Shown in pieces: positions 1-34,903 of a stretch of DNA of 64,000 nucleotides. This DNA is from the human T2T-CHM13v2.0 reference genome, Homo sapiens: NCBI RefSeq assembly GCF_009914755.1, contig NC_060948.1, one strand, 5' to 3'. Made by a program: the position numbers and the translations under genes. Position 1 is the first letter of the stretch. Every line of letters starts with the position of its first letter. The notes below the pieces were generated by a model that had not been told where the DNA came from, ran no database searches, and saw only the letters and a program-made list of their open reading frames with translations.

Positions 1-1188
1 TTTCAGCTCCATCAGCTCCTTTAAGCACTTCTCTGTATTGGTTATTCTAGTTGTACATTCTTCTGAATTTTTTTCAAAGTTTTCAACTTCTTTGCCTTTG
101 GTTTGAATGTCCTTCCGTAGCTCAGAGTAATTTGATCGTCTGAAGACTTCTTCACTCAGTTCGTCAAAGTCATTCTCCATCCAGCTTTGTTCCGTTGCTG
201 GTGAGGAACTGCGTTCCTTTAGAGGAGGAGAGGCGCTCTGCTTTTTAGAGTTTCTAGTTTTTCTGTTCTGTTTTTTTCCCCATCTTTGTGGTTTTATCTA
301 CTTTTGGTCTTTGATGATGGTGATGTACAGATGGGTTTTTGGTGTGGATGTCCTTTCTGTTTGTTAGTTTTCCTTCCAACAGACAGGACCCTCAGCTGCA
401 GGTCTGTTGGAGTACCCTGCCGTGAGAAGTGTCAGTGTGCCCCTGCTGGGGGGTGCCTCCCAGTTAGGCTGCTCGGGAGTCAGGGGTCAGGGACCCACTT
501 GAGGAGGCAGTCTGCCCATTCTCAGATCTCCAGCTCTGTACTGGGAGAACCGCTGCTCTCTTCAAAGCTGTCAGACAGGGCCATTTAAGTCTGCAGAGGT
601 TAATGCTGTCTTTTTGTTTGTCTGTGCCCTGCCCCCAGAGGTGGAGCCTACAGAGGCAGGCAGGCCTCCTTGAGCTGTGGTGGGCTCCACCCCGTTGGAG
701 CTTCCGGGCTGCTTTGTTTACCTAAGCAAGCCTGGGCAATGGTGGGCGCCCCTCCCCTAGCCTCGCTGCTGCCTTGCAGTTTGATCTCAGACTGCTGTGC
801 TAGCAATCAGCGAGACTCCGTCGGCATAGGACCCTCGGAGCCAGGTGCGGGATTTAATCTCGTGGTGCGCCGTTTTTTAAGCCTGTCGGAAAAGCGCAGT
901 ATTAGGGTGGGAGTGACCCGATTTTCCAGGTGCCGTCTATCACCCCTTTCTTTGACTAGGAAAGGGAACTCCCTGACCCCTTGTGCTTCCCGAGTGAGGC
1001 AATGCCTCACCCTGCTTCGGCTCATGCAAGGTGTGTGCACCCACTGACTTGTGCCCACTCTCTGGCACTCCCTAGTGAGATGAACCCGGTACCTCAGAGG
1101 CAAATGCAGAAATCACCCTTCTTCTGGGTCGCTCATGCTGGGAGCTGTAGACCGGAGCTCTTCGTATTCGGCCATCTTGGCTCCTCCC
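1..1188 (-). mobile_element. L1PA2/3-type LINE-1 5' UTR and start of ORF1 (left-arm copy, cut by the window edge)
   Basis: Reverse complement of gggaggagccaagatggccgaata...; mirrors 52996-54183. Confidence 0.97.
739..1047 (+). CDS. L1 antisense ORF0-like frame (102 aa, ATG intact); expression unknown
   Basis: MVGAPPLASLLPCSLISDCCASNQRDSVGIGPSEPG... matches the primate L1 ORF0 peptide, with an extended C-terminus. Confidence 0.6.
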   Translation: MVGAPPLASLLPCSLISDCCASNQRDSVGIGPSEPGAGFNLVVRRFLSLSEKRSIRVGVTRFSRCRLSPLSLTRKGNSLTPCASRVRQCLTLLRLMQGVCTH

Positions 1189-1317
1189 TGGCTCAGTTTT
1201 TTTTAAAAGACAAAACCCTTTACTTATTAAAGGGAAGAGTGAGCTTTCCAAATGATCTGTCTCTTGTTTTTTTCTTCACTTCTTGATAGTCTGTTCACAA
1301 AGCAAACAAAAATTTTT

Positions 1318-1614
1318 TATTATTTATATATTTATTTACTTATTTATTTTTGAGACAGGATCTCTCTCTGTCACCCAGGCTGGAGTGCAGTGGCATGATC
1401 TTGGCTCACTGTAATCTTCACTTCCTGGGTTCAAGCAATTCTCCTGCCTCAGCCTCCTGAGTAGCTGAGACTACAGGTGACCACCGCCATGCCTGGCTAA
1501 TTTTTGTACTTTCATTAGAGATGAGGTTTCACCATATTGGCCAGACTGGTCTCAGACTCCCAACCTCAGGTGATCTGCCCACCTCGGCCTCCCAAAGTGT
1601 TGGGATTACAGGTG
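1318..1614 (-). mobile_element. Alu (slightly 5'-truncated)
   Basis: tgagacagga...cccaggctggagtgcagtgg...cctcccaaagtgttgggattacagg with an A-rich tail. Confidence 0.95.
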
Positions 1615-2804
1615 TTAACATTACATGAAAATATTGCTGAGAGAGAACAAAATTTTATCCATCCATTAGTCTATTATTCATGTCATCCCATTTTTTTAAA
1701 TGAAACGTTATATGCAAATGTATTCAATTTTTATCCGTTTGACAGTGAGGTGAAATTCTTACAAGCCTTTTATAAACCTGTAGAAATATTCGTTAAAAAG
1801 CAGATCAGTGCAATAAGAAATGCTTGGCTTCCAATGTTCAATGTATGGGAAAACCAAATAATATCTTTTTGAATTTAGTCAGTATGTTTATACACATAAT
1901 TTATTTTACAAGATTAAGTTTTACAAGCCATCCACTACTTGTTTTCACTTTTGCTTTATCTTATCTAATTTAACATAATCCTTTAGCTTCAAACTAGGCA
2001 AAAATTTATATTCCCATGCCATCTTATAATGTTTTACTAAAAACATATTTACTTTCCTTGTACACATTGCATGTAAATTTACTTTCAGTAGTCTCAGTTA
2101 TATGTTATAATGGTAACTCTTAGCAATTTTTAATTTTGATGTAAAACCTGATAAGTTACTTTAAGTATGTAGTAGATGCAGATAAGGCCAGACTATTTCC
2201 AGCATAGTTAGGGTGTTGTTAACTTCATATGTCCCCAGGCCTTACCCAAACTGTAAAGAAAACAAGTTAAAAATTTTCAAAAGACAAAGAAGCCCCTTTG
2301 ACCTCAAAGCACTTAGCAAACCTAGTTTCTGACCTGCATAATTTATACCACATGTGCACATTATGAGACATTCTTATTTTACCGATAATCTTAAATTCAA
2401 AGATCAAAGTCATATGAGCTAAAAGCATTATAGCTTTATTTTCTTTAAAAATATTTTATTTAGGTTATTATTTTCTCCTTAAGCCAATCAATTAAAACTC
2501 ATTTTAATATAAACATTATACATAGAACACACATATAACTACACAAACAGACAAGAGATAATACAGTCATTGCAAGACCTTTTTTTTATTGCCAATCTCC
2601 TGAATGGACTACTGGTTACAGGGTGGATCTCTCCAAGAAACAAAAGCTGATTTTGAGAGGAATCTTCTCCTTTTAATTTCTGGGGTTCTGGAGTTCTATG
2701 AAAAACACCCTCATGTGGCACCCTTTTGTCCAAAACTTTGGTTTGAAAACCTAAAAGGCAAAGCTGAATCTGAGTGACCCAGAGGCAGATGATGGTGTAG
2801 GCCT

Positions 2805-3080
2805 CGGGCCACTTTCGTGGAACAAGAGGGACCAGGGAGATCTTTACTTTGAGGTAAAAGCAGGAGGATTAATGAGTGCACTCAGATGCAGTGGACTTAA
2901 CATCCAAACACTGGGCCCAGAACAAAGACAGCACTTGACTTTTACATACATTTTAAAAGGGGGTGTGGGCTAGCTTGCAGTAGGCTTACAGTGGCATGAA
3001 AGCAAGCATACAGAAACAGAACAAAGACAGTTAATCAAATTGTGACAGTTTCATAACTCAGAATTACACATGACAGTTCC
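2805..3080 (-). mobile_element. LTR fragment, LTR22 (HML-5)-like
   Basis: Minus strand reads taaaagtcaagtgctgtctttgttctgggcccag...gagtgcactcattaa, then tggcccg (start of a tRNA-Ile-like PBS). Family recalled from memory. Confidence 0.45.
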
Positions 3081-4097
3081 TAGGGAGAGAAAAGAAGTTT
3101 TGAAATTGGGGAACTGCCAAAAAAAACCCACCTGTACCCTCACATGGAAAAACTACGTTGAATCCTGACATGGTGGAGGAAAAAAGCACTTAACTGCAGG
3201 GGTGCTCTTCCAAGGCAGCCCCCTTTTTAGCAGCAGTCAGTATTTGATTAAAAGGTAATATAACATTCTTTCCAGGAGAGTTCAAATACTTAGATTAAAT
3301 TCTGGAAGGCTTCCATATACCTGTCAAGGTCATCTGAAAACTTGTTGAGTTCACACCTAATTTGCCTTAAGTCATATAGAGTAAAGGAGACCTTGATTTT
3401 AGTGGGTCCATATTCACCAGACATCTGTTGTAGGGACAGAAGACAAAGACCTGCCTAAAATGAGAATTTCTAGAATGGAACAAATTTGAGAGAAAACCTG
3501 AATAGGAAGGAATGGAGAGAGTTGACTACCCCACTGAAGGTACCTCTTGGGTTTGCTTCCCTAAGTCCCTGAATTTTTCCCTTGCAGCCTCTCCTGATGT
3601 GGCCACCAGGAGGGCCAAATTAATCCTACAATGTTGGCAAAGGTCTAGATAACCCTGCAAGGTAAAGAAAGTCTGCACGTATGGGATCTTGGACCATTTG
3701 CCTTCACATTTACAGAGAAAGTCCAGCTTCAGGATGGTATTTAAATTAATGCTTTTTTCCTGAGGTCTTACTTCTTTTCTGTGCCTGAAGGTGCTTGGCA
3801 ATATAGCTGCAGGATGGTATTGAAATTAATGCTTTTTTTCTTGAGGCCATGCTTCTTATCTGTGTCTGAAGGTGCTTGGAAAAATTTGACAACCAAGGAA
3901 ATGACAAGAAAGTTTTCACCACAAACTTATGTATAAATACCAAGAAACACTTTTTTTAATCTGTGCTACTCTTAACCTTCCATTTTCTACTCCTGATGAC
4001 TAAACCAAATTCTCATTCTATCGGGTAATGTACCTGTGGTTTGCAACAACATTCTTAAGATTGTAGGTAGAGAAGAAAATCACAGCCACAGCAGTCA

Positions 4098-4222
4098 AGG
4101 AAGGAAAGAACGAAGGAAGGAAGGAAGGAAGAAGGTAGGAAGGAAAGAAGGAAGGAAGGAAGGAAGGAAGAAGGAAGGAAGGAAGGAAGGAAGGAAGGAA
4201 GGAAGGAAGGAGGGAAGGAAGA
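4098..4222 (+). repeat. (GGAA)n microsatellite
   Basis: Direct reading; 12 bp longer than the right-arm copy. Confidence 0.97.
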
Positions 4223-4675
4223 AAATGGAGGGTGGGAGGGAGGTTAATAAAAAAGGCTGAAGGCAACAAGAAGGTGAGAAGGGCTGTGACCCTCTGGGGA
4301 GGGCCAACACATTGTATCAACACATTGAGGGGCTGTTTACTGGAGTCAGTCAAGGTATGGCCTTGGCCAGATGTATTCAGTTGCCCTAATACCTTATTCT
4401 GATTCCACACAATGGCTAGAACTCTGTAAAGGTAAACTGATTTGAAAAAAAGAGAAAAAAGCCAACATTCCCAACACCTGAGGGTTATGGGGGATTAACA
4501 GTGTTTTCCTCAGCAAGCCTGTCCTCCCTGTCTTAAGTCAGGCAGCTTTGCCAGTTGCTTTTAACTGACAAACAGAGGACCTGTATTTTTCTTTTATTTT
4601 TGGCTATTGTGATGTTTAGGACAGAAAGCAACAAGTTTGCTTTTATTTGCCATTCTACAAATCCCAGATGAGTCT

Positions 4676-6254
4676 GCCAAAGGATTTTTGGAGTGTTGCT
4701 TTATCATCTAGAAATCTCCGTGACTGGTGGTACCTTCTGCCTGAGTATCACTCAGGTACCTTCTGCCTGAGTATCACTCATGCCACTTGGCTTGTTCTGC
4801 CCATTAAGCCCAGCAGGCTGTGCTTAAGTTGCACTGCTGGCCCAGATTCCACACCTGCTACATCAATCCAGCCATGAAGTGGCAAGGGATATGTAAGTGA
4901 GCACACATGGGGTCCTGCTGTGGCAGGACAGGCAGCTCCTGGTGCTGGCACATGTGCCAGCTCTGTGCAAGGCTGTAGCTACATGTATTTACATGTAGTT
5001 ACATGTATACTGCATGTAACTTTCACTGTGGGCACCCACGTTTAGACAAGGGGAACATGGCCACCAAAAGCTTGGAGATGCCAGAAACCACAGAGGCCAA
5101 AGAGATTTTACAGCCCTGGCTTGTGAAGACCCTTGGTCTGGGCTTCCCAGAGGGCCACCTATTTTCTCACCTTCTTGTTACCTGCAACATGGTGAGTGGA
5201 AGTGGATGTGTTTTAGTCATTTATGTTACAGCCGTTTTAATCCCACCACTCAGCGGGTCCCAGGTTCTTGTCCTGCATCCAGGAAGAGTAAGTAATGAGA
5301 ATAACTGGAGAGTGAGCAAGGCAGTGAGGAGATTCACTGAGTAATGGAACAACTCTCCAGAGACCTGAAATGGATAGTTTCTTTCAGCAGGCAGGTCATC
5401 CTGACAGGTGTCCAGCTCTCAGCAGAGAGGAGACCCACAATATGTATATCCTTTTGGTGGGCATATTGTCCCAATGTCTGTTCTAGTCTGGTGGAGTCTG
5501 GGGTTTTTATGGGCTCAGCATGGAGAAAGTGCATGCTGACTGGTCCATGGATGGTCATGGGTGGGCCCAGAAAAAGCATCATAAGTTCTCACTCTGGGTT
5601 GCTGACTCCACCCAAAGTTTATAAGTAAGCCCAACCCCCCACTTCAGGCTGTTCCTTGTTTGAAGGTGGAGTTTCACGGGAGATCCACTCCTTTCCACCC
5701 AGTAACCCGTCTGCCTCCCATCATGAACATACCATTCCCGCCATGCAGGCTGTTCATGCCAACAGGTGCTTGTAGACCCACACCAAGCTGCCCTTAGCCT
5801 CCCTGGACTCTCTCTCATGCTTGTCAGTGCCCAAAGTTTGGAGGGTGTTAAGGCTACAAGAGTCTAGCATGTCAGCACCACCCTGTGTGTGCAAACTTGG
5901 CCAGGTTATAATGGCACCCAGCCGCAGCCACAATTTTCCTCCAAAATCAGAGCAGACACCAGGAGTGGAGAAATGCCAGACAGTGGGAGCAGGCCCTACT
6001 GAACCTGCAGGAAAAAAGAGGGAAACCCTCATCCCTCAAGAGTACCTGGATTCCTGGATCTGGATCTGTGGCTGGACAGCTGCAGCTGTGCCCAGGAGCA
6101 TGGGACTTCCACCCCTCTAACTTGGTAAAAGGTGAGGTTCCCACATATCCTTGGCTCTCACTGGCTCCATGAAGCATGCAACCCCTGCCATACATCCTCA
6201 TGAAGCTGGTGCCTTCACATAAACAACACCACATGGGCCACCACTGCCATCACT
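4676..6254 (-). mobile_element. MER52-family ERV1 LTR
   Basis: About 1.6-kb GC-rich LTR with cccataaaaaccccagactc (TATA region) and cttcctggatgcaggacaagaac motifs on the minus strand. Confidence 0.7.
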
Positions 6255-7580
6255 GGGTCCAGCAATATCTCACAACATCCCCTGAGTGGAGGGACCATGC
6301 AGATAGGTCACATTACCTAGGTAAACTCCTTACAGATATGACACAATGTCCTCCCTGGATAGGACCCAGAAAGAGGAGGAGAGTCACATATCTTAGGGGC
6401 TGGACCCAGCTCTATGCCACATTTTCCCACATGGGTGTGGCCCAGGCATGAGATGAGAATCATATAACCTATGTGCTAGGGTTGGCAATATGTCACAATA
6501 CTCCCTGAGTAAAGGGCTCAGGCATGAGAGCCACATCACCTAGGTGAAGGCTCAGAGATATGTCACTATGTACTCTGTGGGCAGGGCTTAATAAGAAACG
6601 GACAGTCACATATCCTAGGGGCTAGGCCAAACAACACGTTATGATCCCCACTGTGAACAAGTCCTAAAAAGGAAATGAGAGTCATACCATCTAGGAAATG
6701 ACCACACCAATAAGTGACAATGACCGCTGTGAGTAGGGACCAGGTGACATAGCACATCATCTGTGTGCAGGTCCCAGTGACAACTCATTGTCCTTTCCGT
6801 GGACATGGACTAAGCAACAGAGGAGAGTTGAATTATCTATCTAGGTGTTGGGCCAAGAGATATGTAACAATCTCTCCTATGGGGAAAGCCAAGTAAGAGA
6901 AAAGAGTTATGCCAAATAGTTTATGGGCCCAGGATATGTCACAATGCCCCATCTAAGCAGGGCCAGGCATCAGATTGACATTACCTTGGTGCTGAGCCCA
7001 CATATATGTCACATTGCAATCAGAGAATAGGTTCCAGAAACAAGAGTAATGGTACCTTTCAGTTGAGCCCAGTGATATGTCACTGTCTGTCCTTAGAACA
7101 GAACCTAGGAAGAAGTCACATCAGCTAGGTGTTTGGCCAAATATGTCACAATTTCCCCTAGGCAGAAGAAGACAGTCAGATCACCTGGGTGATGGGTGCA
7201 GAGCTATGCCATAATGCCCTCTGTATGCAGGGTTCAGGCAGGAGGGTTATATTGTCTCAGAGCTGGACCAAGCAATATGACACAGTGGCCCATGGTGGCA
7301 AGACCAGGCAGGAGACTTACATTATCTGGGTGTGGAATGCAGAGATATGTCAAAATTCCACCAGTGAAGAGCACCAAGGCAGGAGAGGAGACTCATATCA
7401 ACTAAAGAGTAAGCCCAGTGGTATGTCACAATGTCCTTTGTGGGCAATACCAACGAATAAAAACAGAGTCACATCCCCGAAGTGCTGGGCTCAGCGATTT
7501 GAAGCAAAACCATCTGTGGGCTTAGCCCACACAGGACACTCAAATCACTAAGGTGCTAGACAGAAGCATGTCACAATGGT
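6255..7580. repeat. Diverged beta-satellite-like (BSR/Beta, ~70 bp) array
   Basis: Recurrent gatatgtcacaat / gagtcacatcacctagg / ctgggccc motifs at roughly 70-bp spacing. Confidence 0.75.
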
Positions 7581-8050
7581 ACCTGCAGGAGGCTTTAAGT
7601 GATGGTACTAATGATCCCACAAATGTCTTGATTTCATGCATGAGGGTGAATTTTCTTGTATGTTGGATCTAAGTATACTAGTCACAATCTCAATAGTGGA
7701 CTTAATCTGGCCATAAAAGCCTCAACCTCTCCTGCAGACTTTGTCTCCTTCAGGGAGCCACAGCCACACACAGCACACACAGTGTGCTGAATTTTTGTTT
7801 GAGGGTGACCAACCTAACCATGGACTGGAATGATGTATGAGAGTAAGTTTTTAAACTTTTGACTGCCTTTTGACTGCAAACTTTTGGCTGTTAGATATAA
7901 AACCTCATCAATGGGCCGCGTTCCCGTGGGAGAATGAAAATCTTTGCTGTTGGCTGGATGTGCATATGAATGCACAATTCCACCTGTGTGCTGGGTTCCA
8001 TAAACTTTCTACACTATCTGAAAGCTTTATACAATATAAATGAGAGTCTG

Positions 8051-8383
<333 letters not shown>

Positions 8384-8691
8384 TTACTGGTATGGACACA
8401 TAAACTCAGCTGTGTCCAGCACAGATATGAGAGTCAACGTCTCTCCAATTGACTCGGTCCTCTCTCCAATTGACTTGGTCCAAATAAGAGGGTCTTTACC
8501 TGCCTGTGAGCTGGGTTTAGAAATAGGTTATATTTCAACTGTGGCTATATGTTCACATATGACAGTCACAGTTTTAACTGTGGACTCTTTCTGCATGTGA
8601 TATTCAGAACCCCCACAATGGATTGTGAGAATGACTATTATAATGCCAACTTTATCAGTTGGCAATGTGCAAACATAAGAAACCCGATTGT

Positions 8692-8818
8692 GGCCAGGTG
8701 CAGTGGCTCACATCTGTAATCTCAGCACTTTGGGAGGCTGAGGCTGGCAGAGCATCTGAGTTCAGGAGTTTGAGACCAGCCTGGCCAATATGGTAAAACC
8801 CCGCCTCTACTAAAAATC

Positions 8819-8866
<48 letters not shown>

Positions 8867-9042
8867 AGCCAGGCATTTTGGTGTATGGCTGCAATCCCAG
8901 CTACTTGCAAAGCTGAGGCAGGAGAATCACTTGCAACATGGGAGTCAGAGTTTGCAGTGACCTGAGGTCACACCATTGCACTCTAGCCTGGGTGATAAGA
9001 GTGAAACTCCATCTCAAAAAGGAAAAGAAAATAAAAGAAAAA
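8692..9042 (+). mobile_element. Alu with expanded middle A-linker (A45)
   Basis: Standard Alu with a 45-nt A run at 8820-8864. Confidence 0.95.
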
Positions 9043-9310
9043 ACACAATCTCAACTACGCACCAGGATTCATGATGACACTCTCTGTACCAAATAAGAAC
9101 TTTATACTACGTACTAGAGAGTGGTAATCTTCTATGACCTTCATATATACATGCTCTCTGGTTATTTTCCAGACTTGTTGACCTCTCTTCATAGTGTTAT
9201 TGGTCTCCATATTTCCATTTTCTTTCCTCAGTGGCTGATACTGATTAATCAGTAATCTCAGAACCTGTTTGGCATGTAGCATGCAGCATATGAGAATAAG
9301 TGTCTATTGT

Positions 9311-10350
9311 CAGTTCTGGGTCTAGCGTACCTTTAACTGTAGCAGTTTCTATGTGACCGACTACATTTACAACATAAGCTGAATTACAGACAATGTTGGT
9401 AGGATCTGCAGCTGTGAGCTGTAAAATCTGAATGACTGCAGTTAGCACTGAGAATTGAGCTGAAGCCCCAGAGGGCATTATTGTTTGAGTATGTTTAGGT
9501 CCATAGAGAGTGGCACGACCTTTAGAAGAGCCATCAGTAAAATAAGTCTGTCCACCTGGAATAGGCTTGTGATGAGTAATCACAGGAAGAATGAAAGAAT
9601 GGAATTCATAAAACTACAAAATTTTGTCTGAGGGATAATGAAAGCAAAGGTTTCTGCAGGTGTAGCTGGGAGGCATGCCATTGCTAAAGCATTTGTTCTA
9701 CAAGCTGCAACTCCAAATTCTGCCTCTTTGGCCAACTGCCATGGGAAATTTAGTGAAGAGTCTCCTGGCAGGGTTTAACCTTTCTTTCCAGTTATTGATA
9801 TTGGGTTAGGGTTTCCTTGTAGGAATTTCTCTAAATATTTTCCACTCTGATGTCCCATGTCCTTCAACATTTTAAATCCTAGGTTATCAAAGTTTTCATT
9901 TGTAAGTCTCATATCCCATGCTGTAAGTAAGTCTTGACCCCATAAATTGATAGCTATATTTGCAACATAAGGCTGAAAAGTACACCATTGTCCGTCTGGA
10001 CCAGGAAAAGGTAAAATCTCAGCACTCTGTTAAACACTTTGAGCTGTTCCTACTCCCGCTAAGGATGTAGAAGTTAATTGTAATGGCCAGGATGGGGGCC
10101 GATTGTCTTTAGATATTATTGACACATCAACTCCCGTATCCATAAGCCCCCAAATTTATTTCCTTTAATTTGCACTACACAGGTGGGCCTATCAGAGGCT
10201 ATCGGTTGGGATGGATAGATTTCCCATGTAGTTGTGCTGCTAAACCGTTTATTCTCTTGTTTCTCCTTTCATGGAGGAGGGTGTAATTTGCAGGGAATAA
10301 ACAATAATTGAGCAACATATTCTCCTGGTTCAAAAACCCAAAGATCTTGT
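9311..10350 (-). mobile_element. Betaretrovirus-like HERV-K(HML) pro / RNase H fragment
   Basis: ORF 9245..9583- has TYFTDGSSKG...NIVCNSAYVV (RNase H); the protease motif atggatacgggagttgatgtg (MDTGVDV) is on the minus strand. Confidence 0.8.
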
Positions 10351-10955
10351 TGTTGTACCCAAGCGAGTTAGAGGAACACCACACTTTGAGACAAATTTAA
10401 GAGTCCTTTATTAGCCAGTGAGAGAGAGACGGCTAACGTTTGGAATTCTCTTGGCCCCGAGGAAAAGGCTTGCTTTTCCTTTATACTTTGGTTTAGGAAG
10501 GGGAGGGGAGCTCAGTTGCAACAATTCTACAGAAGTGAAAACATGCGAAAAACTTAAAAAGACAAATGGTTACAGGGAAGACAACAGTTCCAGGTGCAGG
10601 GGCTCTAAATCTATCATAAGATGTTAGGTATGGGGGCTCTGCCAGACAGAAACTCAAGGCGTTATGGTGTTATCTCTTGAGCAAAATCCTGGGAACTTTG
10701 TACATTGCTTGCTTCAGTACCTTATCAGTTAATTGGACTCTTTGATATGTTGAGAGTCAGCTTACACAAGTGAACTCCTTGAGGAAGGGGGTGGGTAAGG
10801 AGTCCTTGACGTCTTGTAAATGAAGGAGCCAAATGGAGTTCATCAGGCTTTCTCAGTCAAGGGAGAGCTTATACATGTGGAAACAAGGCTAGGTGATTAA
10901 GGGAGAAAGGGAGAGTCTAAAAGCAAGGTTAGTAAAAACAAGGTTAGGTATTACA
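10351..10955 (-). mobile_element. Solo LTR, LTR6-like (ERV1), defining the left inner arm boundary
   Basis: TG...CA termini (tgtaatacc...gggtacaaca), TATA (gtataaagg) and AATAAA on the minus strand; 605 bp. Confidence 0.75.
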
Positions 10956-12054
10956 CTATAATCAGCAATATAATTGTCAAGTAACATAATCAGTTAGGTA
11001 AGATTGTTAATGTTATGCTAGCATAATATTGATAGTGACAAAATCTTGAATTTAAAAATGTCAAAATCTTTCAATTTTTTTGAAGGGAAGACTTGCAATG
11101 CACCCTTAAAGTGAGATGTAACTTTTTTCTTATAGAAAAGTTAAAACAGGGTGGAGGAGCCAAGATGGCCAAATAGGAACAACTCCAGTCTACAGCTCCC
11201 AGCGTGAGTGATGCAGAAGATGGGTGATTTCTGCATTTCCATCTGAGGTACCGGGTTCATCTCACTAGGGAGTGCCAGACAGTGGGCACAGGTCAGTGGG
11301 TGCATACACTATTTGTGAGCCGAAGCAGGGCGAGGCATTGCCTCACTTGGGAAGCGCAAGGGGTCAGAGAGTTCCCTTTCCTAGTCAAAGAAAGGAGTGA
11401 TAGACAGCACCTGGAAAATCGGTCACTCCCACCCAAATACTGCACTTTTCCAAAGGGCTTAAAAAACGGCCCACCAGGAAATTATATCCCCAACATGGCT
11501 GGGAGGATCCTATACCCACGGAGTCTCTCTGCTTGCTAGCACAGCAGTATGAGATCAAACTGCAAGACAGCAGCGAGGCTGGGGGAGGGATGCCCGCCGT
11601 TGCCCAGGCTTGCTTAGGTAAACAAAGCAGCAGGGAAGCCCGAACTGGGTGGAGCCAACCACAGCTCAAGGAGGCCTGCCTGCCTCTGTAGGCTCCACCT
11701 CTGGGGGCAGGGCACAGACAAACAAAAAGACAGCAGTAACCTCTGCAGACTTAAATGGCGCTGTCTGACAGCTTTGAAGAGAGCAGTGGTTCTCCCAGCA
11801 TGAAGGTGGAGATCAGAGAATGCGCAGACTGCCTCCTCAAGTGAGTTCCTGACCCCGGACCCCGAGCAGCCTAACTGGGATGCACCCCCCAGCAGGGGCA
11901 GACTGACGCCACATGTGGTGGGGTACTCCAAGGGACCTGCAACTGAGGGTCCTGTCTGTTAGAAGGAAAACTAACAAACAGAAAGGACATCCACACCAAA
12001 AACCCATCTGTACATCACCATCATCAAAGACCAAATGTAGATAAAACCATGAAG

Positions 12055-13072
12055 ATGGGGAAAAAAACAGAACAGAAAAACTGGAAACTCTAAAATGCAG
12101 AGCAACTCTCCTCCTCTAAAGGAGTGCAGTTCCTCACCAGCAATGGAACAAAGCTCAACAAAGAATGACTTTGACGAGCTGAGAGAAGAAATGTTCAGAT
12201 GATCAAACTACTCTGAGCTATGGAAGGACATTCAAACCAAAGGCAAAGAAGTTGAAAACTTTGAAAAAAATTCAGAAGAATGTACAACTAGAATAACCAA
12301 TACAGAGAAGTTCTTAAAGGAGCTGATGGAGCTGAAAACCAAGGCTCCAGAACTACTAGAAGAATGCAGAAGCCTCAGGAGCCAATGCGATCAACTGGAA
12401 GAAAGGGTATCAGCGATGGAAGATGAAATGAATGAAAGGAAGTGAGAAGGGAAGTTTAGAGAAAAAAGAATAGAAAGAAATGAGCAAAGCCTCCAAGAAA
12501 TATGGGACTATGTGAAAAGACCAAATCTATGTCTGATTGGTGTACCTGAAAGTGATGGGGAGAATGGAACCAAGTTGGAAAACACTCTGCAGGATATTAT
12601 CCAGGAGAACTTCCCCAATCTAGCAAGGCAGGCCAACGTTCAGATTCAGGAAATACAGAGAACGCCACAAAGATACTCCTCGAGAAGAGCAACTCCAAGA
12701 CACATAATTGTCAGATGCACCAAAGTTGAAAAGAAGGAAAAAATGTTAAGGGCAGCCAGAGAGAAAGGTCGGGTTACCCTCAAAGGGAAGCCCATCAGAC
12801 TAACAGCGGATCTCTCGGCAGAAACCCTACAAGCCAGAAGAGAGTGGGGGTCAATATTCAACATTCTTAAAGAAAAGAATTCTCAACCCAGAATTTCATA
12901 TCCAGCCAAACTAAGCTTCATAAGTGAAGGAGAAGTAAAATACTTTACAGACAAGCAAATGCTGAGAGATTTTGTCACCACCAGGCCTGCCCTAAAAGAG
13001 CTCCTGAAGGAAGTGCTAAACATGGAAAGGAACAACCGCTACCAGCCACTGCAAAATCATGCCAAAATGTAA
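12055..13072 (+). pseudogene. L1 ORF1, disrupted (frameshift in the A run after ATG; TGA at ~12443)
   Basis: The C-terminal 186 aa (KRPNLCLIGVPESDGENG...NHAKM) are open; the upstream part is broken. Confidence 0.92.
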
Positions 13073-13135
13073 AGACCATCGAGACTAGGAAGAAACTGCA
13101 TCAACTAACGAGCAAAATAACCAGCTAACATCGTA

Positions 13136-16960
<3,825 letters not shown>

Positions 16961-17269
16961 GTGGGAATTGAACAATGAGAACACATGGACACAGGAAGGG
17001 GAACATCACACTCTGGGGACTGTTGTGTGGTGGGGGGAGGGGGGAGGGATGGCATTGGGAGATATACCTAATGCTAGATGATGAGTTAATGGGTGCAGCG
17101 CACCAGCAAGGCACATGTATACATATGTAACTAACCTGCACATTGTGCACATGTACCCTAAAACTTAAAGTATAATTATAACAAATTAAAAAAGGAAAAG
17201 TTAAAACAATGAGTGTATTTGGTTCAATAAATATATCTTTCTGTATTTTATAATTTTATTTAAAAATAT

Positions 17270-19695
17270 TTTTACCTAAGGGCCAGATATTTATTCCTAT
17301 TAGCCATTCCCTAGGAGAGCCACTAGTTTAAGAGAATTATTTTTCTTGCTCTTTCTAAATGTTTTTCTGTGCTAAAATGTTACTTTGTGTTAAAATCCTC
17401 CTTTCCTTTAAAGACAACCCATCATTAAGGGTCCTGACAAAAAGCTTATTGTCCACTTTTAGAACTAGACATATGTTCATTTTGATGATTCTCTACAAGG
17501 GCCACTGAGAGTGTTCTTCTCCTTGCTCTTTCTAGACACCTATCTAAAAGTTTTTCTTGTTGAAAACATTTTTTTTTCCAAAACCATAACTGACTGTCAT
17601 CATAAGTTCTGGCACAACACTTTTCATTAGCTTTCAGTGATGGATATTTATTTGTTTTTAAGGTTCTCTAAGAGGGCCACTGATGTGAGAGAATTGATCT
17701 GGTTGTTTTTTCTAAATGCCTGTCTACAAGTGCGTTTTGAACTAAGTGTCATTTTTTTTTTAAGCAAATCACCTGCTATTAAAAATTCTAACACAAAGTT
17801 TGTTGTCAGCTGTCAGGGCTGAATATTTATTTATATTTAAGTTTATGATATTGAAAGTTTCCTAACAGGGAAATAAGTGCAACAAATTTTGTTTCTTCCT
17901 CAAAATGATTGTCTGCAAACTTTTTTTGTGTTTTGAAATTTTGTTTGTCCTAAAAGAAAATTACCCAACTTCAACAGTTCTGACACAAAACCTGTCAAAT
18001 TTCAGAGTCACATATTTGCACATTTTGATGGTTGAAAAAAAACACAACCATGTAAGAGAATGACCCTCCTAGCTGTTTCAAAATAACTGTGTGCCAACTT
18101 TTCATTATGGAGGCATCTTTCATTTTTAGAATAAATATTACCTGTCATCCAGACTTCTGGCAAATAACTTGTTGTCAGTGTTCAGAAGCAAATATTTGTT
18201 TTTATTTATAAATTTCCAGAAGGGCCACTGATAGGAGAGAATCTATCTCCTTGCTTCTTCTAAATGCCTGTCTTCAAACTTTCATTGTTTTGAAATCTTC
18301 CTTTTCATCAAAAATGCCTTCATCAATAATACTGGCATAAACCTTTGGTCAGTTTGAAAACTGAATATTTTTCCTATTGATAAGCCTCTATATAAAGGCC
18401 ACTGGCATTAGACAGTTTTCCTCCTGCTGTTTCTAAATGCCTCTTGCAAACTTTGCTTTGTGGTAAAAATCTTTCTTTCTTATTGAAAGAAAAAAAAACC
18501 AACACCTGTCAAGAGTTCTGGTACAGGCCAGGTGTGGTGGCTCATGCCTGTAATCCCAGTATTCTGGGAGGCTGAGGCAGGCGGACCACTTGAGGTGAGG
18601 AGTTTGAGACCAGCCTGGCCAACTTGAGGTGAGGAGTTTGAGACCAGCCTGGCCAACATGGTGAAACCCATCTCTGCTAAAAATACAAAAATTAACCTGG
18701 TATTGTGATGTGTGCCTGCAGCTACTCGGGAGGCTGAGGCAGAAGCCTCACTTGAATTCAGGAGATGGAGGGTGCAGTGAGCCAAGATCATGCTACTGCA
18801 CTCTGGCTTGGGTGACAGAGTGAGACTCTGTCTAGAAAAAAAGAAAGAAAGAAAAAAAAAAGAAAGCTCTTGAACAAATCTTTTTTCAGCTTTGAGAACT
18901 ATAATTTGTTAATATTCAGTGTCCTCAGGAAGCCAACTAGCATAAGAAAATTCCTCTCCTTGCTCATTCCAACAGCCTGTCTGACAACTTTTCTTTCTGT
19001 TTAATTTTTTTTTCCTAGAAGAAAACTACATATCAACAAGAGTTCTGGCATGAGGGTTGTTACCTTATTTGAGGGAAGGGTATTCATTTATTTTCATATT
19101 TTTTCAGGAAGGCCACTGATAGAATTCCTTTCCCTTGCTTCTTCTAAATGTCTGCAAACTTTGCATATAGAAGTTTTCCTTTCTCTGAAAAAATTACCTG
19201 TTTTAAAGAGTTCTGATCCATAGTTTCTTGCATATTTCAGGGCCAGGTATTTGTTTATTTTTGTGATTTCTATGAGAGCCGCTGAAGTGAGATAACTTTC
19301 TTGCTCCTTCTAAATGGCTATTGGATAAGTTATCTGTTTTAGAACATCTTCCTTTTTCTAAAAGAGAAGGGCCATTCTCATGAGTTCTGGCATGTACTTT
19401 GTGGTAAGCTTTCAGGCTTAGATATTTTTATGGTTCACTAACAGGTTTACTGTTGCTAGAAAAAAATGCCCTTTCGGCTTTTTATAAATGCTTGTCAACA
19501 AACTTTTCTCCAAGGAAATGTTTTCCATTTCCTGAAGAGAAACTACTTATCATCAAGAGTCTTTTCATAAAGCTTGTGTCACCTTTCAGTGCCTGAAGTA
19601 TGTTTATATTGATGGGTTTCCTGAAAAAAAAAAAAAACACTGGGAGGAAAAAATCAACCTTATTACTCCTTTTAAATGTATGTTTGTGAATTTCT
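17270..19695. repeat. Diverged ~176-bp AT-rich tandem array, block 1
   Basis: gagttctggcacaaagc..gtcagctttcag..gatattt..gggccactga..tctaaatgcctgtctgcaaac recurs at ~17608, 17787, 17977, 18154, 18331, 18515, 19043, 19211, 19385 and 19559. Confidence 0.88.
18526..18862 (+). mobile_element. Alu with an internal 34-bp tandem duplication
   Basis: cttgaggtgaggagtttgagaccagcctggccaa occurs twice (18589 and 18623). Confidence 0.95.
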
Positions 19696-20196
19696 TATCA
19701 GGCCTCTGAACCCAAGCCAAGCCATCGCATCCCCTGTGATTTGAAGGTATATGCCCAGGTGGCCTGAAGTAACCGAAGAATCGCAAAAGAAGTGAAAATG
19801 CGCTGCCCCGCCTTAACTGATGACATCCCACCACAAAATAAGTGCAAATGCCAGTCCTTGCCTTAACTGATGACATTCTACCATAAAAGAAGTGAAAATG
19901 TCCAGTCCTTGTCTTAAGTGATGACATTATCTTGTGAAAGTTCTTTTCCTGGCTCGTCCTGGCTCAAAACCCTCCTTCACTGAGCACCTTTTGACCCCCA
20001 TTCCTGCCCACCAGAGAGCAAATCCACTTTGACTGTAATTTTCCTTTATCTACCCAAATCCTATAAAATGGCCCCACCCTTATCTCCCTTCACTGACTTT
20101 CTTTTCCTACTCAGCCTGCCTGCACCCAGGTGGTTAAAAGCTTTATTGCTCACACAAAGCCTGTTTGGTGGTCTCTTCACACAGACATGCATGAAA
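19696..20196 (+). promoter_or_regulatory. HERV-H 5' LTR (LTR7 family)
   Basis: tatcaggcctctgaacccaag start, cctataaaatgg TATA, ends ...catgaaa. Confidence 0.93.
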
Positions 20197-20198
20197 TT

Positions 20199-20216
20199 TG
20201 GTGCTGTGATTCAGAT
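20199..20216 (+). other. Primer-binding site, tRNA-His type (decayed)
   Basis: tggtgctgtgattcagat versus the canonical TGGTGCCGTGACTCGGAT. Confidence 0.85.
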
Positions 20217-21006
20217 TGGGGGACCTCCCTTGGGAGATCAATCCCCTGTCCTCCTGCTCTTTGCTCTGTGAGAACGATCCACCTATGACCTCAGGTCCTC
20301 AGACTGACCAGCCCAAGAAACATCTCACGAATTTCAAATCTGGTAAGCAGCCTCTTTTTACTCTCTTCTCCAACCTCCCCCACTATCCCTCAACCTCTTT
20401 CTCCTTTCAGTCTTGGTGTCACACTTCAATCTCTCCCTTTTCTTAATTTCAATTCCTTTCATTTTCTGGTAGGGACAAAGGAGACACGTTTTATCCATGG
20501 ACCCAAAACTCTGGCACTTGTCAAGGACTGGGAAGGCAGCCTTCCCTTGGTGTTTAATCATTGCAGGGATGCCTCTCTGATTATTCACCCATGTTTCAGA
20601 GGTGTCAGACCACATGGGGACCCCCGCCTTGGTCCTTCACCCTTGGCAGCAAGGCCTGCTTTTCTGGGGGAGGGGCAAGTACCTTAGCCCCTTCTCTTTT
20701 GTGTCTCTACCCCTTCTCTGCTTTTCTGGGGGAGTGGCAAGAACCCCTCAACCCCTTCTCTTTCACCTTTAGCAGCAAGTCCTGCTTTTCTAGGGGGCAA
20801 GAACCCCAATCCCTTATTTCCATGCCCTGACCTCTTATCTTTGTGCCCCAATACCTTATTTCCACACCCCAACCTCTTATCTCTATGCTCCAACTCCTTA
20901 TTTCTGTGCCCTGACCCCTCTCACACTTTTCTTTAGGGTAAGAACCCCTGAATCCCTTCCCTCCAAGTCTCTACTCTCTCTTTTCTCTGGGATTGCTTCC
21001 TTCACT

Positions 21007-22600
21007 ATGGGCAACCTTCCACCCTCCATTCCTCCTTCTTCTCCCTTAGTCTGTGTTCTCAATAACTTAAAACCTCTTCAACTCACACCTGACCTAAAAC
21101 CTAAATGCCTTATTTTCTTCTGCAACACTGCTTGGCCCCAATACAAACGTGAAAATGGCTATAAGTGGCCAGAAAATGGCATGTTTGATTTCTCCATCCT
21201 ACAAGACCTAAATAATTTTTGTCAAACAATGGGCAAATGATCTGAGGTGCCTTACATCCAGGCATTTTTCACACTTTGTTCCCTCCCTAGTCTCTGTTCC
21301 CAATGCAATTTCTCCCAAATCCTCCTTCTTTCCCACCCACCTGTCCCCCAGTCCAAACCCCTAGCATCACCAAGTCTTTCCAGTCTTCCTTTTCTACAGA
21401 CCCATCTGACCTTTCCCCTCCACTGCAGGCTGCTCATCACCAGGCCGAGCTAAGTCCCAGTCCTTCCTCAGCCTCCACTCCTCCATCCTATAATCCTTCT
21501 ACCACCTCCCCTTCTCACACCCAGTCCAGCTTACAGTTTATTTCTGCGACTAGCTCTTCCCCACCTGCCCAACAATTTCCTCTTAGAGAGGTGGCTGGAG
21601 CTGAGGGCATAGTCTGGGTACATGTACTTTTTTCTCTATCAGACCTCTCTCAGATCAGTCAGTGTTTAGGCTCTTTCTCATAAGACCCCACTAAATATAT
21701 ACAGGAATTCCAATATCTAACTCTGTCCTACAATTTAACCTGGAGTGACTTAAATATCATCCTGACTTCTGCCCTCTCCCCAGATGAATGGGAAAGAGTT
21801 TTTTCTCTAGCCCAATCTCATGCTGATAACCACTGGCTTCATGAGCCAGAACTCCAGGAAGGCATTAGAGCAGTTCCCCGAGAGGATCCCCAATAGAACT
21901 ACCAGGCAAATTCCCCAGGTATAGCTAGGCGAGATTACATGATTTCCCACCTTGAAGGCAGCTTACATAACTGTTAATTATGACAAGCTTAAAGAAACTA
22001 CCCAAGGTTAAGACAAAAACCCAGCCCAGTTCATGGCCCACTTAGCAGCAATGCTTAGACACTATACCACCCTAGACCCAGAAAGGCCAGAAGGCCGTCT
22101 TATTCTTAATATACATTTTATCACCCAATCAACTCCTGACATTAGGAAAAAACTTCAAAAGTTAGAATCTGGCCCTCAAACCCCACAACAGGAATTAATC
22201 AACCTCTCCTTCAAGGTGTACAATAACAGAGAGGAAGCAGCCAGACAGTAACACATTTCTGTTACAATTACTTGCCTCTGCTGTGAGACAAAACCAGACA
22301 CACTTTCATCATATAAGAACTTCAAAATGCCTAAGCCGCACACACGTAAGCTGCAGCAGTCAAGCATTCCTACAAGACTCACTCCGTCAGGATCTTGCTT
22401 GAAGTGCCAGAAATCTGGTCACTGGGCCAAGGAATGCCCATAGCCCAGGATTCCTACTAAGCCATGCCCATCTGTGCAGGGACCCACTGGAAGGCAGACT
22501 GCCCAGCTCACCCAGCAGCCACTCCTAGAGCCCCTAAAGCTCTAGCCCAAGGTTTTCTAACTCCTTCCCAGATCTGCTCAGCTTAGCGACTGAAGATTAA
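21007..22600 (+). pseudogene. gag: HERV-H gag remnant
   Basis: MGNLPPSIP...LIFFCNTAWPQY; HFITQSTPDIRKKLQK; zinc knuckle CLKCQKSGHWAKEC at ~22396. Confidence 0.88.
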
Positions 22601-25600: not shown

Positions 25601-26160
25601 CTCAATCTTCAGGAAAGGTAAAACAGACTAATGGTATTTTAAAGTCACACCTCACCAAGCTCAGCCTCCAACTTAAAAAGTATTGGACAGTACTTTTACC
25701 TCTTGCCCTTCTCAGAATTAAACCTGTCCTCGAGTTGCTACAGGGTACAGTGCATTTGAACTTCTATATGGACGCACTTTCCTGCTTTGCCCCAAACACT
25801 TCCCAGACACCAGCCCTCTAGGCGACTATCTTCCAGTCCTCCAACAGGCTAGACAGGAAATTCACCAAGCTGTTAATCTTCTCTTGCCTTCTCCAGATCC
25901 CCAGCCACATGAAGACACCCTAGCTGGACGATCAGTTCTTGTTAAGAATCTGAACCCTCAAACTCTACAACCTCGATGGACCAGACCCTACTTAGTCATC
26001 TGTAGTACCCTGACTGCTGTCTGCCTGCAGGATCTTCCACACTGGGTTCACCATTCCAGAATAAAGCTGTGTCCATCAGGCAGCCAGCCTAATCCCTCTC
26101 TTCCTCCTGGAAGTCACAAGTACTCTCCCCTACTTCCCTTAAACTCACTCATATTTCTGA
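22601..26160 (+). pseudogene. pol: HERV-H pro-pol remnant
   Basis: FIDTGAT (protease), LDLKDAFF / LPQSFRDSP / QYIDDLL (RT), WFIDGSS / YTDSKY (RNase H), SDNGPVF / PYHPQSSG (integrase); frameshifts and stops present. Confidence 0.92.
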
Positions 26161-26460
26161 AGAACAGTAATAACCCTTATGAGCCTAATACATCCCTTTA
26201 TTCTATTAGGTCTCTCCATCCTTACCCTACTTTTTGCAGCACAGCTTTATGAAATCACCCCCACCAATTGGGCTGAGCCCCAAAAAGAAACTATTCATCC
26301 CTACTGTCTTCTATCTAGTCATACTCCATTCTCAACTACCTATAAATGCCCTACTCTTATTTACACTGATGGTTTACACTGTTTCTTCAAGCCATCACAG
26401 CTGATATCTCTTCGTGCTATCCCCACACCACCACTCTTAAGTCTCTCTTAGAGTGGATAG

Positions 26461-28360: not shown

Positions 28361-28521
28361 ATCTCCCACTCTAGGTTCCCACGCCACCCCTAATCCCACT
28401 TGAAGCAGCCCTGAGAAACATCACCCATTCTCTCTCCATACCACCCCCCAAAAATTTTCACCGCCCCAACACTTCAACGCTATTTTGTTTTATTTTTCTT
28501 ATTAATATAAGAAGGCAGGAA

Positions 28522-31426: not shown

Positions 31427-31427
<1 letters not shown>

Positions 31428-31474: not shown

Positions 31475-31475
<1 letters not shown>

Positions 31476-33450: not shown

Positions 33451-34903
<1,453 letters not shown>

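What the first reader, a model, noticed from the sequence alone, without database searches (positions are those of the whole stretch)
10351..10965. Palindrome inner boundary is exactly an LTR terminus, and shows which arm is ancestral
Seen: arm homology ends at the terminal TG of a 605-bp solo LTR. On the right, that LTR has its TSD (acga/acaa) and the host HML dUTPase-pro runs continuously across it into the spacer (...GEIQVVLMS|QDLWVFEPGE). On the left, the same terminus abuts unrelated AT-rich DNA (ctataatcagc) with no TSD and no HML continuation. Inference: the right arm is the original integration context. The left junction was likely made by ectopic recombination or template switching with a second, independent LTR of the same family, so an LTR seeded or trimmed the palindrome. 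The single substitution I found lies within 100 bp of this boundary.
Basis: partly seen in the sequence, partly recalled or inferred. Interest (0 to 1): 0.8.

Follow-up and report, generated by a model that had tools for sequence, protein, structure and literature searches.

The report
Small Y palindrome bounded by retroelements
A small, unnamed inverted repeat on the human Y long arm ends on its inner side exactly at the tip of an old retroviral LTR and on its outer side inside a pair of unrelated L1 elements, which shows that one arm was copied from the other by ectopic repair, an ordinary kind of event seen here in unusually clear detail.

Summary
Arm homology stops exactly at the U3 end of a 605-bp ERV1-type solo LTR (10351-10955; partner 43253-43857). 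The right copy has an exact 4-bp target duplication and splits a betaretroviral dUTPase. The left copy abuts unique 27%-GC DNA with no HML similarity. The only in-window substitution lies 99 bp from the edge.

New findings:
- The arms run beyond the window (-4832..10955 and 43253..59012; 15.8 kb; 32.3-kb spacer). This is not one of P1-P8.
- The outer edge is the poly(A) end of an L1. The right L1 keeps its target duplication and the left L1 does not.
- Arm divergence jumps from about 0 to about 6% inside the L1. The left L1's 3' part is closer to L1s on other chromosomes than to its partner.

The left arm is therefore a roughly 13-kb non-reciprocal copy of the right haplotype, anchored by recombination between two independent inverted L1s.

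The LTR shows no chimeric switch: 0 of its terminal 98 positions differ, against at least 8 in each of 10 relatives, and the single difference is a derived singleton. A non-homologous end at the LTR tip is somewhat more likely. Ape Y sequences would decide, and I could not search them. Makova et al. 2024 list the spacer as a human-specific inversion.

The parts
1..10955 (.). Left (proximal) arm, in-window part. The arm continues 4,832 bases before the window start (chrY:21,881,168-21,896,955 in all).
   Evidence: window -4832..10955 pairs with 59012..43253; 15,790 alignment columns, 98.5% identical.
1..1187 (-). 5' part of the left-arm L1. The element runs on to window -4832. It is a chimera: about 3.25 kb of its 5' part is identical to the right-arm L1, and its 3' 2.8 kb is about 6% diverged.
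   Evidence: the switch is at alignment column about 3252, which is window -2056 / 56240. (the outer flank lacks the CTGAGCCA duplication). (7 of 9 full-length non-self hits elsewhere are 95-96% identical; the partner, at about 93.6%, is not among the 40 scored).
10351..10955 (-). Left copy of the 605-bp ERV1-type solo LTR. Its U3 5' terminus at 10955 is the inner edge of the arm.
10857..10857 (.). The only substitution between the arms inside the window (partner 43351). It is LTR position 99. The left-arm base is derived.
   Evidence: 27 of 28 family copies carry the right-arm base.
10956..11148 (.). Left spacer flank: unique, 26.8% GC, no HML or proviral similarity.
11149..17208 (+). Full-length L1 in the spacer with a 14-bp target duplication, GAAAAGTTAAAACA. 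It is a simple insertion and not part of the boundary event.
12439..13429 (+). 991-bp tract of the spacer L1 with zero differences from the right-arm L1 (54285-55275), in elements otherwise 5-13% apart. Read as ectopic gene conversion.
10956..43252 (.). Spacer, 32,297 bp, not palindromic. Listed by Makova et al. 2024 as 'Human inversion' chrY:21,897,979-21,929,614 (window 11979-43614).
42917..43252 (+). HML (betaretrovirus-like) dUTPase, N-terminal part, running up to the right LTR.
   Evidence: PF00692, E 1.2e-13, profile 2-83/129.
43253..43857 (+). Right copy of the solo LTR in sense orientation, flanked by the 4-bp duplication ACGA/ACAA.
43858..44433 (+). Continuation of HML pro: rest of the dUTPase, the retroviral protease, and a weak G-patch match. 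The frame is broken by stops and shifts.
   Evidence: RVP E 5e-8; G-patch E 0.026, below the curated cut-off.
43253..59012 (.). Right (distal) arm. It is colinear with the inferred ancestral single-copy haplotype: spacer HML, then LTR, then arm, then L1, then outer flank.
52997..59012 (+). Right-arm full-length L1 with target duplication CTGAGCCA on both sides. Arm homology ends at the last A of its poly(A) tail.

Best explanation
This is a small, unnamed inverted repeat at the proximal edge of the large Yq ampliconic block. Its proximal (left) arm is a roughly 13-kb non-reciprocal copy of the distal (right) haplotype.

Shown:
- The right arm is colinear with an intact older haplotype. It carries an HML provirus split by an ERV1 solo LTR with its 4-bp target duplication, and 9 kb further out a full-length L1 with its own duplication.
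- The left arm lacks both duplications.
- The outer junction lies inside an L1. An independently inserted, inverted L1 at the left site supplies the 3' 2.8 kb (about 6% diverged, with its own poly(A) and flank). From L1 position about 3250 inward the sequence is the right arm's.

Inferred sequence of events:
1. A break in or beside the left L1 was repaired by invasion of the inverted right L1.
2. About 13 kb was copied: the L1 5' part, the HML remnant and the LTR.
3. Copying ended at the U3 tip of the LTR, and the new strand was joined to unrelated DNA. This join most likely used end-joining or a microhomology template switch (homologous start, non-homologous finish), so the exact match to the LTR tip would be coincidental.
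4. Later, arm-to-arm gene conversion kept the core nearly identical, recombination between the arms flipped the spacer, and the spacer L1 exchanged a 1-kb tract with the arm L1.
For: Arm extent and identity profile:
- 176 substitutions in window -4832..-2001.
- 22 substitutions in -2000..-1.
- 1 substitution in 1..10955.

Three-way L1 alignment:
- Left and right L1 are identical in columns 1-1890, and differ at only 2 sites across columns 2292-3251.
- Beyond column 3252 all three L1s are mutually 5-10% apart.
- All 20 arm differences in columns 1891-2291 have the right arm identical to the spacer L1.

Target duplications: CTGAGCCA lies on both sides of the right L1. The left L1's outer flank is GTGGAAAAATAAA..., with no match.

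Independence of the left L1: 7 of 9 full-length non-self hits elsewhere are 95-96% identical. The partner is about 93.6% identical (177 substitutions in 2,773 aligned columns) and is not among the 40 scored.

LTR integration site intact on the right only.

No sign of a second LTR.

The left arm as a whole is not a duplication-flanked insertion: the longest common substring of its two outer flanks is 6 bp, reached or exceeded in 370 of 500 shuffles.

Published parallels:
- Shi et al. 2019 (PMC6790999, passages read) describe present-day rearrangements of Y palindrome P8. Three of six duplication junctions lay in divergent repeats of 92 bp to 5.1 kb, one of them a mosaic, and three showed 2-6 bp of microhomology.
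- Non-canonical, end-joined termination of long-tract gene conversion is described in PMC5104497 (search listing and start of abstract only).
Against: - A non-homologous join landing exactly on an LTR terminus is itself a roughly 1% coincidence (my estimate).
- The sequence that originally lay at the left site is lost, so microhomology at the inner junction cannot be assessed.
- The two possible orders of events (start in the L1 and end at the LTR, or the reverse) cannot be told apart.
- Makova et al. 2024 list no human-specific insertion here and call the spacer inverted in humans relative to the other apes. If the apes carry both arms with the spacer flipped, the two intact junctions sit on different arms in them. 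At least one extra flip must then be assumed for my reading.
- I could not examine any ape or other human Y sequence.
Confidence: 0.5

Rival explanations
1. A second, independently integrated LTR of the same family sat at the left site in inverted orientation. The left arm was made by two-sided homology-directed repair, or trimmed by LTR-LTR recombination, bracketed by the L1 pair and the LTR pair. The arm therefore ends where LTR homology ends.
For: - It explains the exact coincidence with the LTR terminus without appeal to chance.
- The outer end of the same arm demonstrably used homology between independent copies of one repeat family.
- Ectopic gene conversion among Y-chromosomal LTRs is reported as common (Trombetta et al. 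2016, PMC4921805, abstract read).
- A solo LTR without a target duplication is the classical mark of inter-element recombination (recalled: Hughes and Coffin).
Against: - There is no chimeric switch in the LTR. 0 of its terminal 98 positions differ between arms, while the 10 closest relatives examined differ at 8, 10, 10, 11, 11, 13, 14, 26, 50 and 53 of those positions.
- The one difference, at position 99, is a derived singleton.
- At the L1 end, 2.8 kb of 6% divergence was never homogenised. Complete overwriting of a roughly 10%-diverged LTR up to its last base, with no homology beyond it, is therefore hard to explain.
- No other family copy lies within 1.5 Mb on chrY. The prior for a same-family LTR in the right place and orientation is about 1% (my estimate).
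Confidence: 0.25
2. An older, larger palindrome was trimmed. Both arms once ran inward through the HML dUTPase and gag, and a later deletion or replacement on the left removed everything inside the LTR. The diverged outer L1 part reflects erosion, or overwriting by a third L1, rather than an independent insertion.
For: - Ectopic L1-to-L1 conversion does occur at this locus: the spacer and right-arm L1s share a 991-bp tract with no differences.
- No human-specific insertion is listed here, and the spacer is called an inversion relative to six apes. This fits an old palindrome.
- Recalled: Jackson et al. 2021 reported that structural changes in primate X palindromes concentrate around spacers.
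Against: - The left L1 has its own poly(A) tail and a different outer flank without the CTGAGCCA duplication. Conversion cannot create these.
- Its closest relatives are on other chromosomes.
- A deletion ending exactly at the LTR tip needs the same 1% coincidence.
- No inverted trace of HML remains anywhere in the left part of the spacer.
Confidence: 0.12
3. The left arm is a giant retrocopy: a read-through RNA from the LTR through the arm and the L1, reinserted by the L1 machinery (5' transduction). Alternatively, the structure is an assembly artefact.
For: The outer edge is an L1 poly(A) end and the LTR is in the same sense as the L1.
Against: - No target duplication brackets the left arm.
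- Transcripts start in R, not at the first base of U3.
- The L1 3' part is a different element from the right arm's.
- A 15.8-kb retrocopy is far beyond usual L1 products (established knowledge).
- Against an artefact: the two arms differ by 199 substitutions and have distinct unique flanks.
Confidence: 0.02

Closest known systems
Human Y palindromes P1-P8 (Skaletsky et al. 2003; Rozen et al. 2003, both recalled; T2T-Y preprint 10.1101/2022.12.01.518724, passages read)
   Same: Inverted arms around a unique spacer in the ampliconic Y. The core is near-identical (1 substitution in the 10,955 in-window bases). The spacer is subject to inversion.
   Different: The arms are much smaller: 15.8 kb, of which about 13 kb is highly identical. 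No annotated gene is present. Overall arm identity is 98.5% because the outer 2.8 kb comes from two different L1s. The locus is not in the palindrome table of Makova et al. 2024: no row has an arm coordinate beginning 2188, 2189, 2192 or 2194 apart from one siamang row. At 40-220 kb from the centre, none of 10 mirrored pairs sampled gave a high-identity inverted match; three gave only 82-92% partial matches.
Present-day rearrangements of palindrome P8 (Shi et al. 2019, PMC6790999, passages read)
   Same: Inverted duplications that create or extend palindromes. Junctions lie either inside divergent low-copy repeats (92 bp to 5.1 kb, one of them a mosaic) or at 2-6 bp of microhomology.
   Different: Here the event is ancient and fixed in this assembly. 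The repeat junction lies in an interspersed L1 pair rather than a local low-copy repeat, and the other junction coincides with an LTR terminus.
Homologous repair finished by end-joining or template switching (PMC5104497, listing and start of abstract only; Richardson and Jasin 2000, recalled)
   Same: A homologous start, a multi-kilobase copied tract, and a non-homologous end.
   Different: Those are reporter assays with sister-chromatid donors. Here the donor is an inverted, 94%-identical L1 tens of kb away. The repair pathway itself is inferred, not shown.
Retroelement-mediated rearrangement and conversion on the Y: HERV15 in AZFa (recalled) and LTR ectopic conversion (Trombetta et al. 2016, PMC4921805, abstract read)
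   Same: Dispersed copies of one retroelement family act as recombination substrates. Mosaic conversion patches are present.
   Different: The AZFa events are deletions or duplications between direct repeats. Here an inverted L1 pair seeded an inverted duplication, and no LTR-to-LTR exchange is detectable.
Inverted-repeat-primed palindrome formation: ODIRA and fold-back models (Brewer et al. 2024, PMC10766186, abstract read; Tanaka et al. 2002, recalled)
   Same: A pre-existing inverted repeat nucleates a larger inverted duplication whose spacer is the DNA between the repeats.
   Different: ODIRA predicts inverted triplications from short inverted repeats at replication forks. Here there are two copies, and the seeding repeat lies at the outer end of the arms, not the inner end.

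Membership tests
Y-chromosome palindrome (Skaletsky type) | Two inverted arms separated by a unique, non-palindromic spacer | tested here: met
   arms of 15.8 kb and a 32,297-bp spacer. The only inverted self-matches inside the spacer are L1 and other repeat fragments at 81-92%.
Y-chromosome palindrome (Skaletsky type) | Arm-to-arm identity of about 99.9% or more along the arms | tested here: inconclusive
   Met in the core: 1 substitution in window 1..10955. Not met in the outer 2.8 kb, which is about 6% diverged, so the overall figure is 98.5%.
Y-chromosome palindrome (Skaletsky type) | Ongoing arm-to-arm gene conversion | tested here: inconclusive
   The 991-bp tract shared by the right arm and the spacer L1 is shared by the left arm over only 600 bp. 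This fits partial arm-to-arm spread. Near-identity could also reflect a recent origin. Population or outgroup data are needed.
Y-chromosome palindrome (Skaletsky type) | Arms carry testis-expressed multi-copy genes (true of six of the eight classical palindromes; recalled) | tested here: not met
   The hub annotation lists no gene in the window. The open frames I examined in the arm and distal spacer (36000-53000) that matched Pfam were retroelement remnants.
   the unit reads TGTAATAC...GTACAACA. 25 of 28 copies end at position 605 with [G/T]TACAACA. Copies starting at position 1 read TGTAATAC or TGTAATGC.
   exact 4-bp overlap of the two flanks on 2 of 2 uninterrupted HML relatives. ATTG and CAGT in the two solo copies with both ends aligned.
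   On the right both flanks are HML pro. The left inner flank is unique DNA.
No Dfam or Repbase library is available. Three of 28 copies are followed by TTTGGA[G/A]GCC, which looks like a primer-binding site.
HML (HERV-K-like betaretrovirus) pro region | dUTPase followed by a retroviral aspartyl protease (and a G-patch) in one pro frame | tested here: met
   PF00692 E 1.2e-13. PF00077 E 5e-8. G-patch only E 0.026, below the cut-off. 39 other genomic matches at 74-87% identity.
Recombinant solo LTR (product of inter-element LTR-LTR recombination) | Flanks that do not form a target-site duplication | tested here: met
   Left copy: the outer flank is TTGT, as in the right arm, and the inner flank is CTAT.
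Recombinant solo LTR (product of inter-element LTR-LTR recombination) | A chimeric LTR sequence, or other trace of the second parent LTR | tested here: not met
   One difference in 605 bp and none in the terminal 98 bp, against 8-53 in each of 10 relatives. The single difference is a derived singleton. No second copy lies within 1.5 Mb.
Chimeric L1 from recombination between independent L1 insertions | Mismatched target duplications, an abrupt identity switch inside the element, and closer relatives elsewhere for the foreign part | tested here: met

The most novel reading that the evidence does not exclude
The palindrome was born by repair bracketed on both sides by dispersed retroelements: an inverted L1 pair outside and an inverted LTR pair inside, the latter since erased. 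This locus would then be a preserved proto-palindrome, showing that pairs of interspersed repeats can nucleate new Y palindromes. The spacer L1 also exchanges sequence with the arms, so the palindrome is still being reshaped by third-party conversion.
Probability: 0.2. Interest if true: 0.6.

Novelty: new member of a known kind. Interest (0 to 1): 0.35.

Why it matters
How Y-chromosome palindromes arise is mostly inferred from large, old examples whose original junctions are gone. This small inverted repeat still carries both. One junction is a clear switch inside two independently inserted L1s, and two target-site duplications show which haplotype was the donor. That makes it a compact, testable case of a palindrome seeded by interspersed repeats. 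It is also a convenient locus for measuring arm-to-arm and third-party gene conversion and spacer flipping in the published human and ape Y assemblies. It changes no principle: repeat-mediated inverted duplication, gene conversion and inversion between arms are all established.

Tried and rejected
- Paralogues of the left spacer flank that might keep an adjacent LTR. 10956-11152 matches only itself. 17209-19700 matches only itself plus Alu-like hits confined to query positions 1311-1671.
- Outgroup search. No ape genome is reachable with these tools, so this was not done.
- T2T-Y palindrome coordinates. The Nature version is not held and the preprint's supplements are closed. I placed the locus from the Makova et al. 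tables instead.
- Is this one of P1-P8? No. None of 10 mirrored pairs sampled at 40-220 kb from the centre gave a high-identity inverted match, and the arms end at -4832 / 59012.
- Residual HML in the left flank: none.
- The left flank as proviral internal sequence: rejected, since it has no match anywhere else in the genome.
- The whole left arm as a retrocopy flanked by a target duplication: rejected.
- A break-prone secondary structure in the AT-rich left flank. The DNA fold z-score is -1.1, and 26 of 200 shuffles fold at least as well. Only an 11/11-nt near-palindrome at 11009-11030 was found. Nothing notable.
- Pfam on the 32-residue piece just after the right LTR gave no hit. Continuity of the dUTPase was shown by nucleotide alignment instead.
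Two 651-bp stretches were fetched instead.
Full report
WHAT IS THERE

The window is T2T-CHM13 chrY:21,886,001-21,950,000. It lies at the proximal edge of the ampliconic block 21,844,000-27,119,000 (sequence-class table of Makova et al. 2024).

A self-comparison shows an inverted repeat whose inner edges are 10955 and 43253, enclosing a 32,297-bp spacer. I fetched the neighbouring DNA of the same assembly. The arms run from window -4832 to 10955 and from 43253 to 59012. That is 15,790 alignment columns at 98.5% identity, with 199 substitutions.

At 40-220 kb from the centre, none of 10 mirrored pairs sampled gave a high-identity inverted match; three gave only 82-92% partial matches. This is therefore not one of the classical palindromes P1-P8. 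The palindrome table of Makova et al. has no row for it.

The last 605 bases of the left arm (10351-10955) are a true repeat unit.
- The same genome gave 43 matches from 40 scored of 425 candidates. Only the two arm copies are 100% identical; the next best are 91%. Several cover the unit from end to end.
- 25 of 28 fetched copies end with [G/T]TACAACA at position 605.
- Three copies are followed by a TTTGGA[G/A]GCC motif that looks like a primer-binding site. This fixes the sense of the LTR, so the arm ends at the first base of U3.

The right copy sits in an intact integration site.
- Upstream, a frame carries a dUTPase domain (Pfam E 1.2e-13) that stops at profile position 83 of 129, exactly at the junction.
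- Downstream lie the rest of the pro region and a retroviral protease (E 5e-8).
- Two uninterrupted HML relatives from other chromosomes (2 of 2 fetched) read straight through. The two flanks overlap on them by exactly 4 bp, ACAA, which appears here as ACGA and ACAA.
- Two solo copies of the LTR family whose ends both aligned have perfect 4-bp duplications.

The left copy abuts 193 bases of 26.8%-GC DNA.
- This DNA has no similarity to HML (best 21 bp or less, E 0.16 or worse).
- It has no other copy in the genome.

Next comes a full-length L1 (11149-17208) with a clean 14-bp duplication.

Inside the window the arms differ by one substitution, 99 bp from the edge, and by 24 gap columns in 5 gaps, those checked lying in a poly(A) tract and a microsatellite.

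The outer 6 kb of each arm is a full-length L1, and arm homology stops at the last A of its poly(A) tail.
- The right L1 has the duplication CTGAGCCA on both sides. The left L1 shares the inner flank but has a different outer flank.
- The substitutions are not spread evenly: 176 lie in -4832..-2001, 22 in -2000..-1, and 1 in 1..10955.
- In a three-way alignment with the spacer L1, left and right are identical over L1 columns 1-1890 and differ at only 2 sites across columns 2292-3251. From column 3252 (window -2056 / 56240) all three elements are mutually 5-10% apart.
- The left L1's 3' 2.7 kb has closer relatives on other chromosomes than its own partner. 7 of 9 full-length non-self hits are 95-96% identical. 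The partner is about 93.6% identical and is absent from the 40 scored. The right L1's best hits are 94%.

The left L1 is therefore a chimera. Its 3' part comes from an independent insertion, and its 5' part belongs to the right arm's L1.

THE DIVERGENT ISLAND IN THE ARMS

The remaining island of divergence comprises 20 substitutions in columns 1891-2291. It has a specific cause.
- The right-arm L1 is identical to the spacer L1 over 991 bp (54285-55275 and 12439-13429), in elements otherwise 5-13% apart.
- The left arm shares only the first 600 bp of that tract.
- All 20 differences have the right arm equal to the spacer L1.

This is an ectopic conversion between the spacer L1 and the arm L1 that has spread only partly to the other arm.

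HOW IT MOST LIKELY AROSE

Shown: both independent markers of original context, the LTR duplication and the L1 duplication, lie on the present right arm. That arm is colinear with an older single-copy haplotype: HML gag/dUTPase, LTR, rest of HML, L1, outer flank. The left arm lacks both markers, and its outer junction is a homologous switch inside an L1.

Inferred: a lesion at the left site was repaired by pairing of the left L1 with the inverted right L1. About 13 kb was copied, and the copy was closed at the LTR tip.

The left arm as a whole is not flanked by a duplication. The longest common substring of its two outer flanks is 6 bp, reached or exceeded in 370 of 500 shuffles. It is therefore not a retrocopy.

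THE INNER JUNCTION

I tested the prediction of a chimeric switch within the LTR, and it fails.
- The arms differ at 1 of 605 LTR positions and at 0 of the terminal 98. The 10 closest relatives examined differ from this LTR at 8, 10, 10, 11, 11, 13, 14, 26, 50 and 53 of those 98 positions.
- The single difference is derived in the left arm, since 27 of 28 family copies have the right-arm base.
- At the L1 end, 6% divergence over 2.8 kb was never erased. Erasing about 10% divergence up to the very last base of an LTR, with no homology beyond it, would be surprising.
- No other copy of the family lies within 1.5 Mb.

Both readings need roughly a 1% coincidence (my estimates): either a same-family LTR in the right place and orientation, or a non-homologous join landing exactly on a repeat terminus. 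The absence of any trace tips the balance to the second. I put non-homologous or microhomology termination at about 0.5, a second LTR at about 0.25, and a trimmed older palindrome at about 0.12.

Present-day P8 rearrangements show the same junction classes: junctions inside divergent repeats, including a mosaic, and junctions with 2-6 bp of microhomology (Shi et al. 2019, passages read).

THE REPORTED INVERSION

Supplementary Data 1 of Makova et al. 2024 lists 'Human inversion' chrY:21,897,979-21,929,614 (window 11979-43614). That is the spacer. It also lists another inversion, 21,796,520-21,878,747, ending 2.4 kb proximal to the left arm. No human-specific insertion is listed here. The method is an intersection of calls against six apes.

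If the apes carry both arms with the spacer flipped, the intact LTR junction and the intact L1 junction sit on different arms in them. The human orientation would then match the donor haplotype, and at least one extra flip must be assumed.

Given toggling rates of 3.7e-5 to 2.4e-4 per generation for Y inversions (Hallast et al. preprint, passages read), spacer orientation is probably not a stable character over millions of years. That last point is inference. It follows that 'which arm is ancestral' is a statement about junctions, not about a fixed physical arm.

LIMITS

- No ape or other human Y sequence could be searched.
- The repeat family names (LTR6, the HML group, the L1 subfamilies) could not be checked, for lack of a repeat library.
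- The T2T-Y supplementary palindrome tables were not readable.

VERDICT

The second-LTR mechanism is unproven and somewhat disfavoured. The locus is a clear, small example of a known kind of event.

Noticed in passing
window 12439-13429 and 54285-55275 (left-arm counterpart -101..-1091, outside the window): The spacer L1 and the right-arm L1 share a 991-bp tract with zero differences, although they are 5-13% apart elsewhere. The left arm shares only the first 600 bp. This accounts for all 20 arm differences in that stretch. It looks like gene conversion from a third party into a palindrome arm.
   Followed up: yes
window 35947-42700: The distal spacer holds a second, gammaretrovirus-like provirus remnant on the + strand: RNase H E 7.8e-9, RT_RNaseH E 2.9e-7, TLV_coat env E 1.3e-8. 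Direct repeats at 35947-36147 and 42071-42275 are 86% identical. It sits directly upstream of what I read by eye as the HML gag end (Pfam gave no support for that part), so the HML provirus appears to be interrupted at least twice.
   Followed up: partly
window 33456-34905, with 32525-32802 and 34902-35180: An L1 3' fragment has one segment inverted relative to the next, a twin-priming-like layout on the minus strand. It lies between two 278-bp direct repeats that are 92.9% identical. That is too long for a target duplication.
   Followed up: no
chrY:21,796,520-21,878,747 (window -89,480 to -7,253, outside the window): Makova et al. 2024 list a second human-specific inversion of 82 kb that ends 2.4 kb proximal to the left arm, and a small human deletion at chrY:21,876,261. 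Whether the two inversions are linked events is unknown.
   Followed up: no
G000 chrY 7,282,323; 23,536,524; 25,367,779; 26,987,202 (loci L007-L010): Four other Y copies of the same LTR family give identical scores (86%, 736 bits) and identical flanks. They are presumably one insertion carried on copies of a Y amplicon.
   Followed up: no
window 3833, 4139-4146, 4171-4177, 8820-8830: All 24 indel columns between the in-window arms fall in five gaps; those I checked are a GAAGGAAA-type microsatellite and an 11-base poly(A) length difference. Slippage evidently outpaces homogenisation at these sites.
   Followed up: partly
window 10918-10947 (and 43261-43290): The U3 start of the LTR carries a 15-bp tandem duplication, TAAAA[A/G]CAAGGTTAG x2. 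Some family copies have it and three of the ten closest lack it. It is a subfamily marker, not a junction feature.
   Followed up: partly
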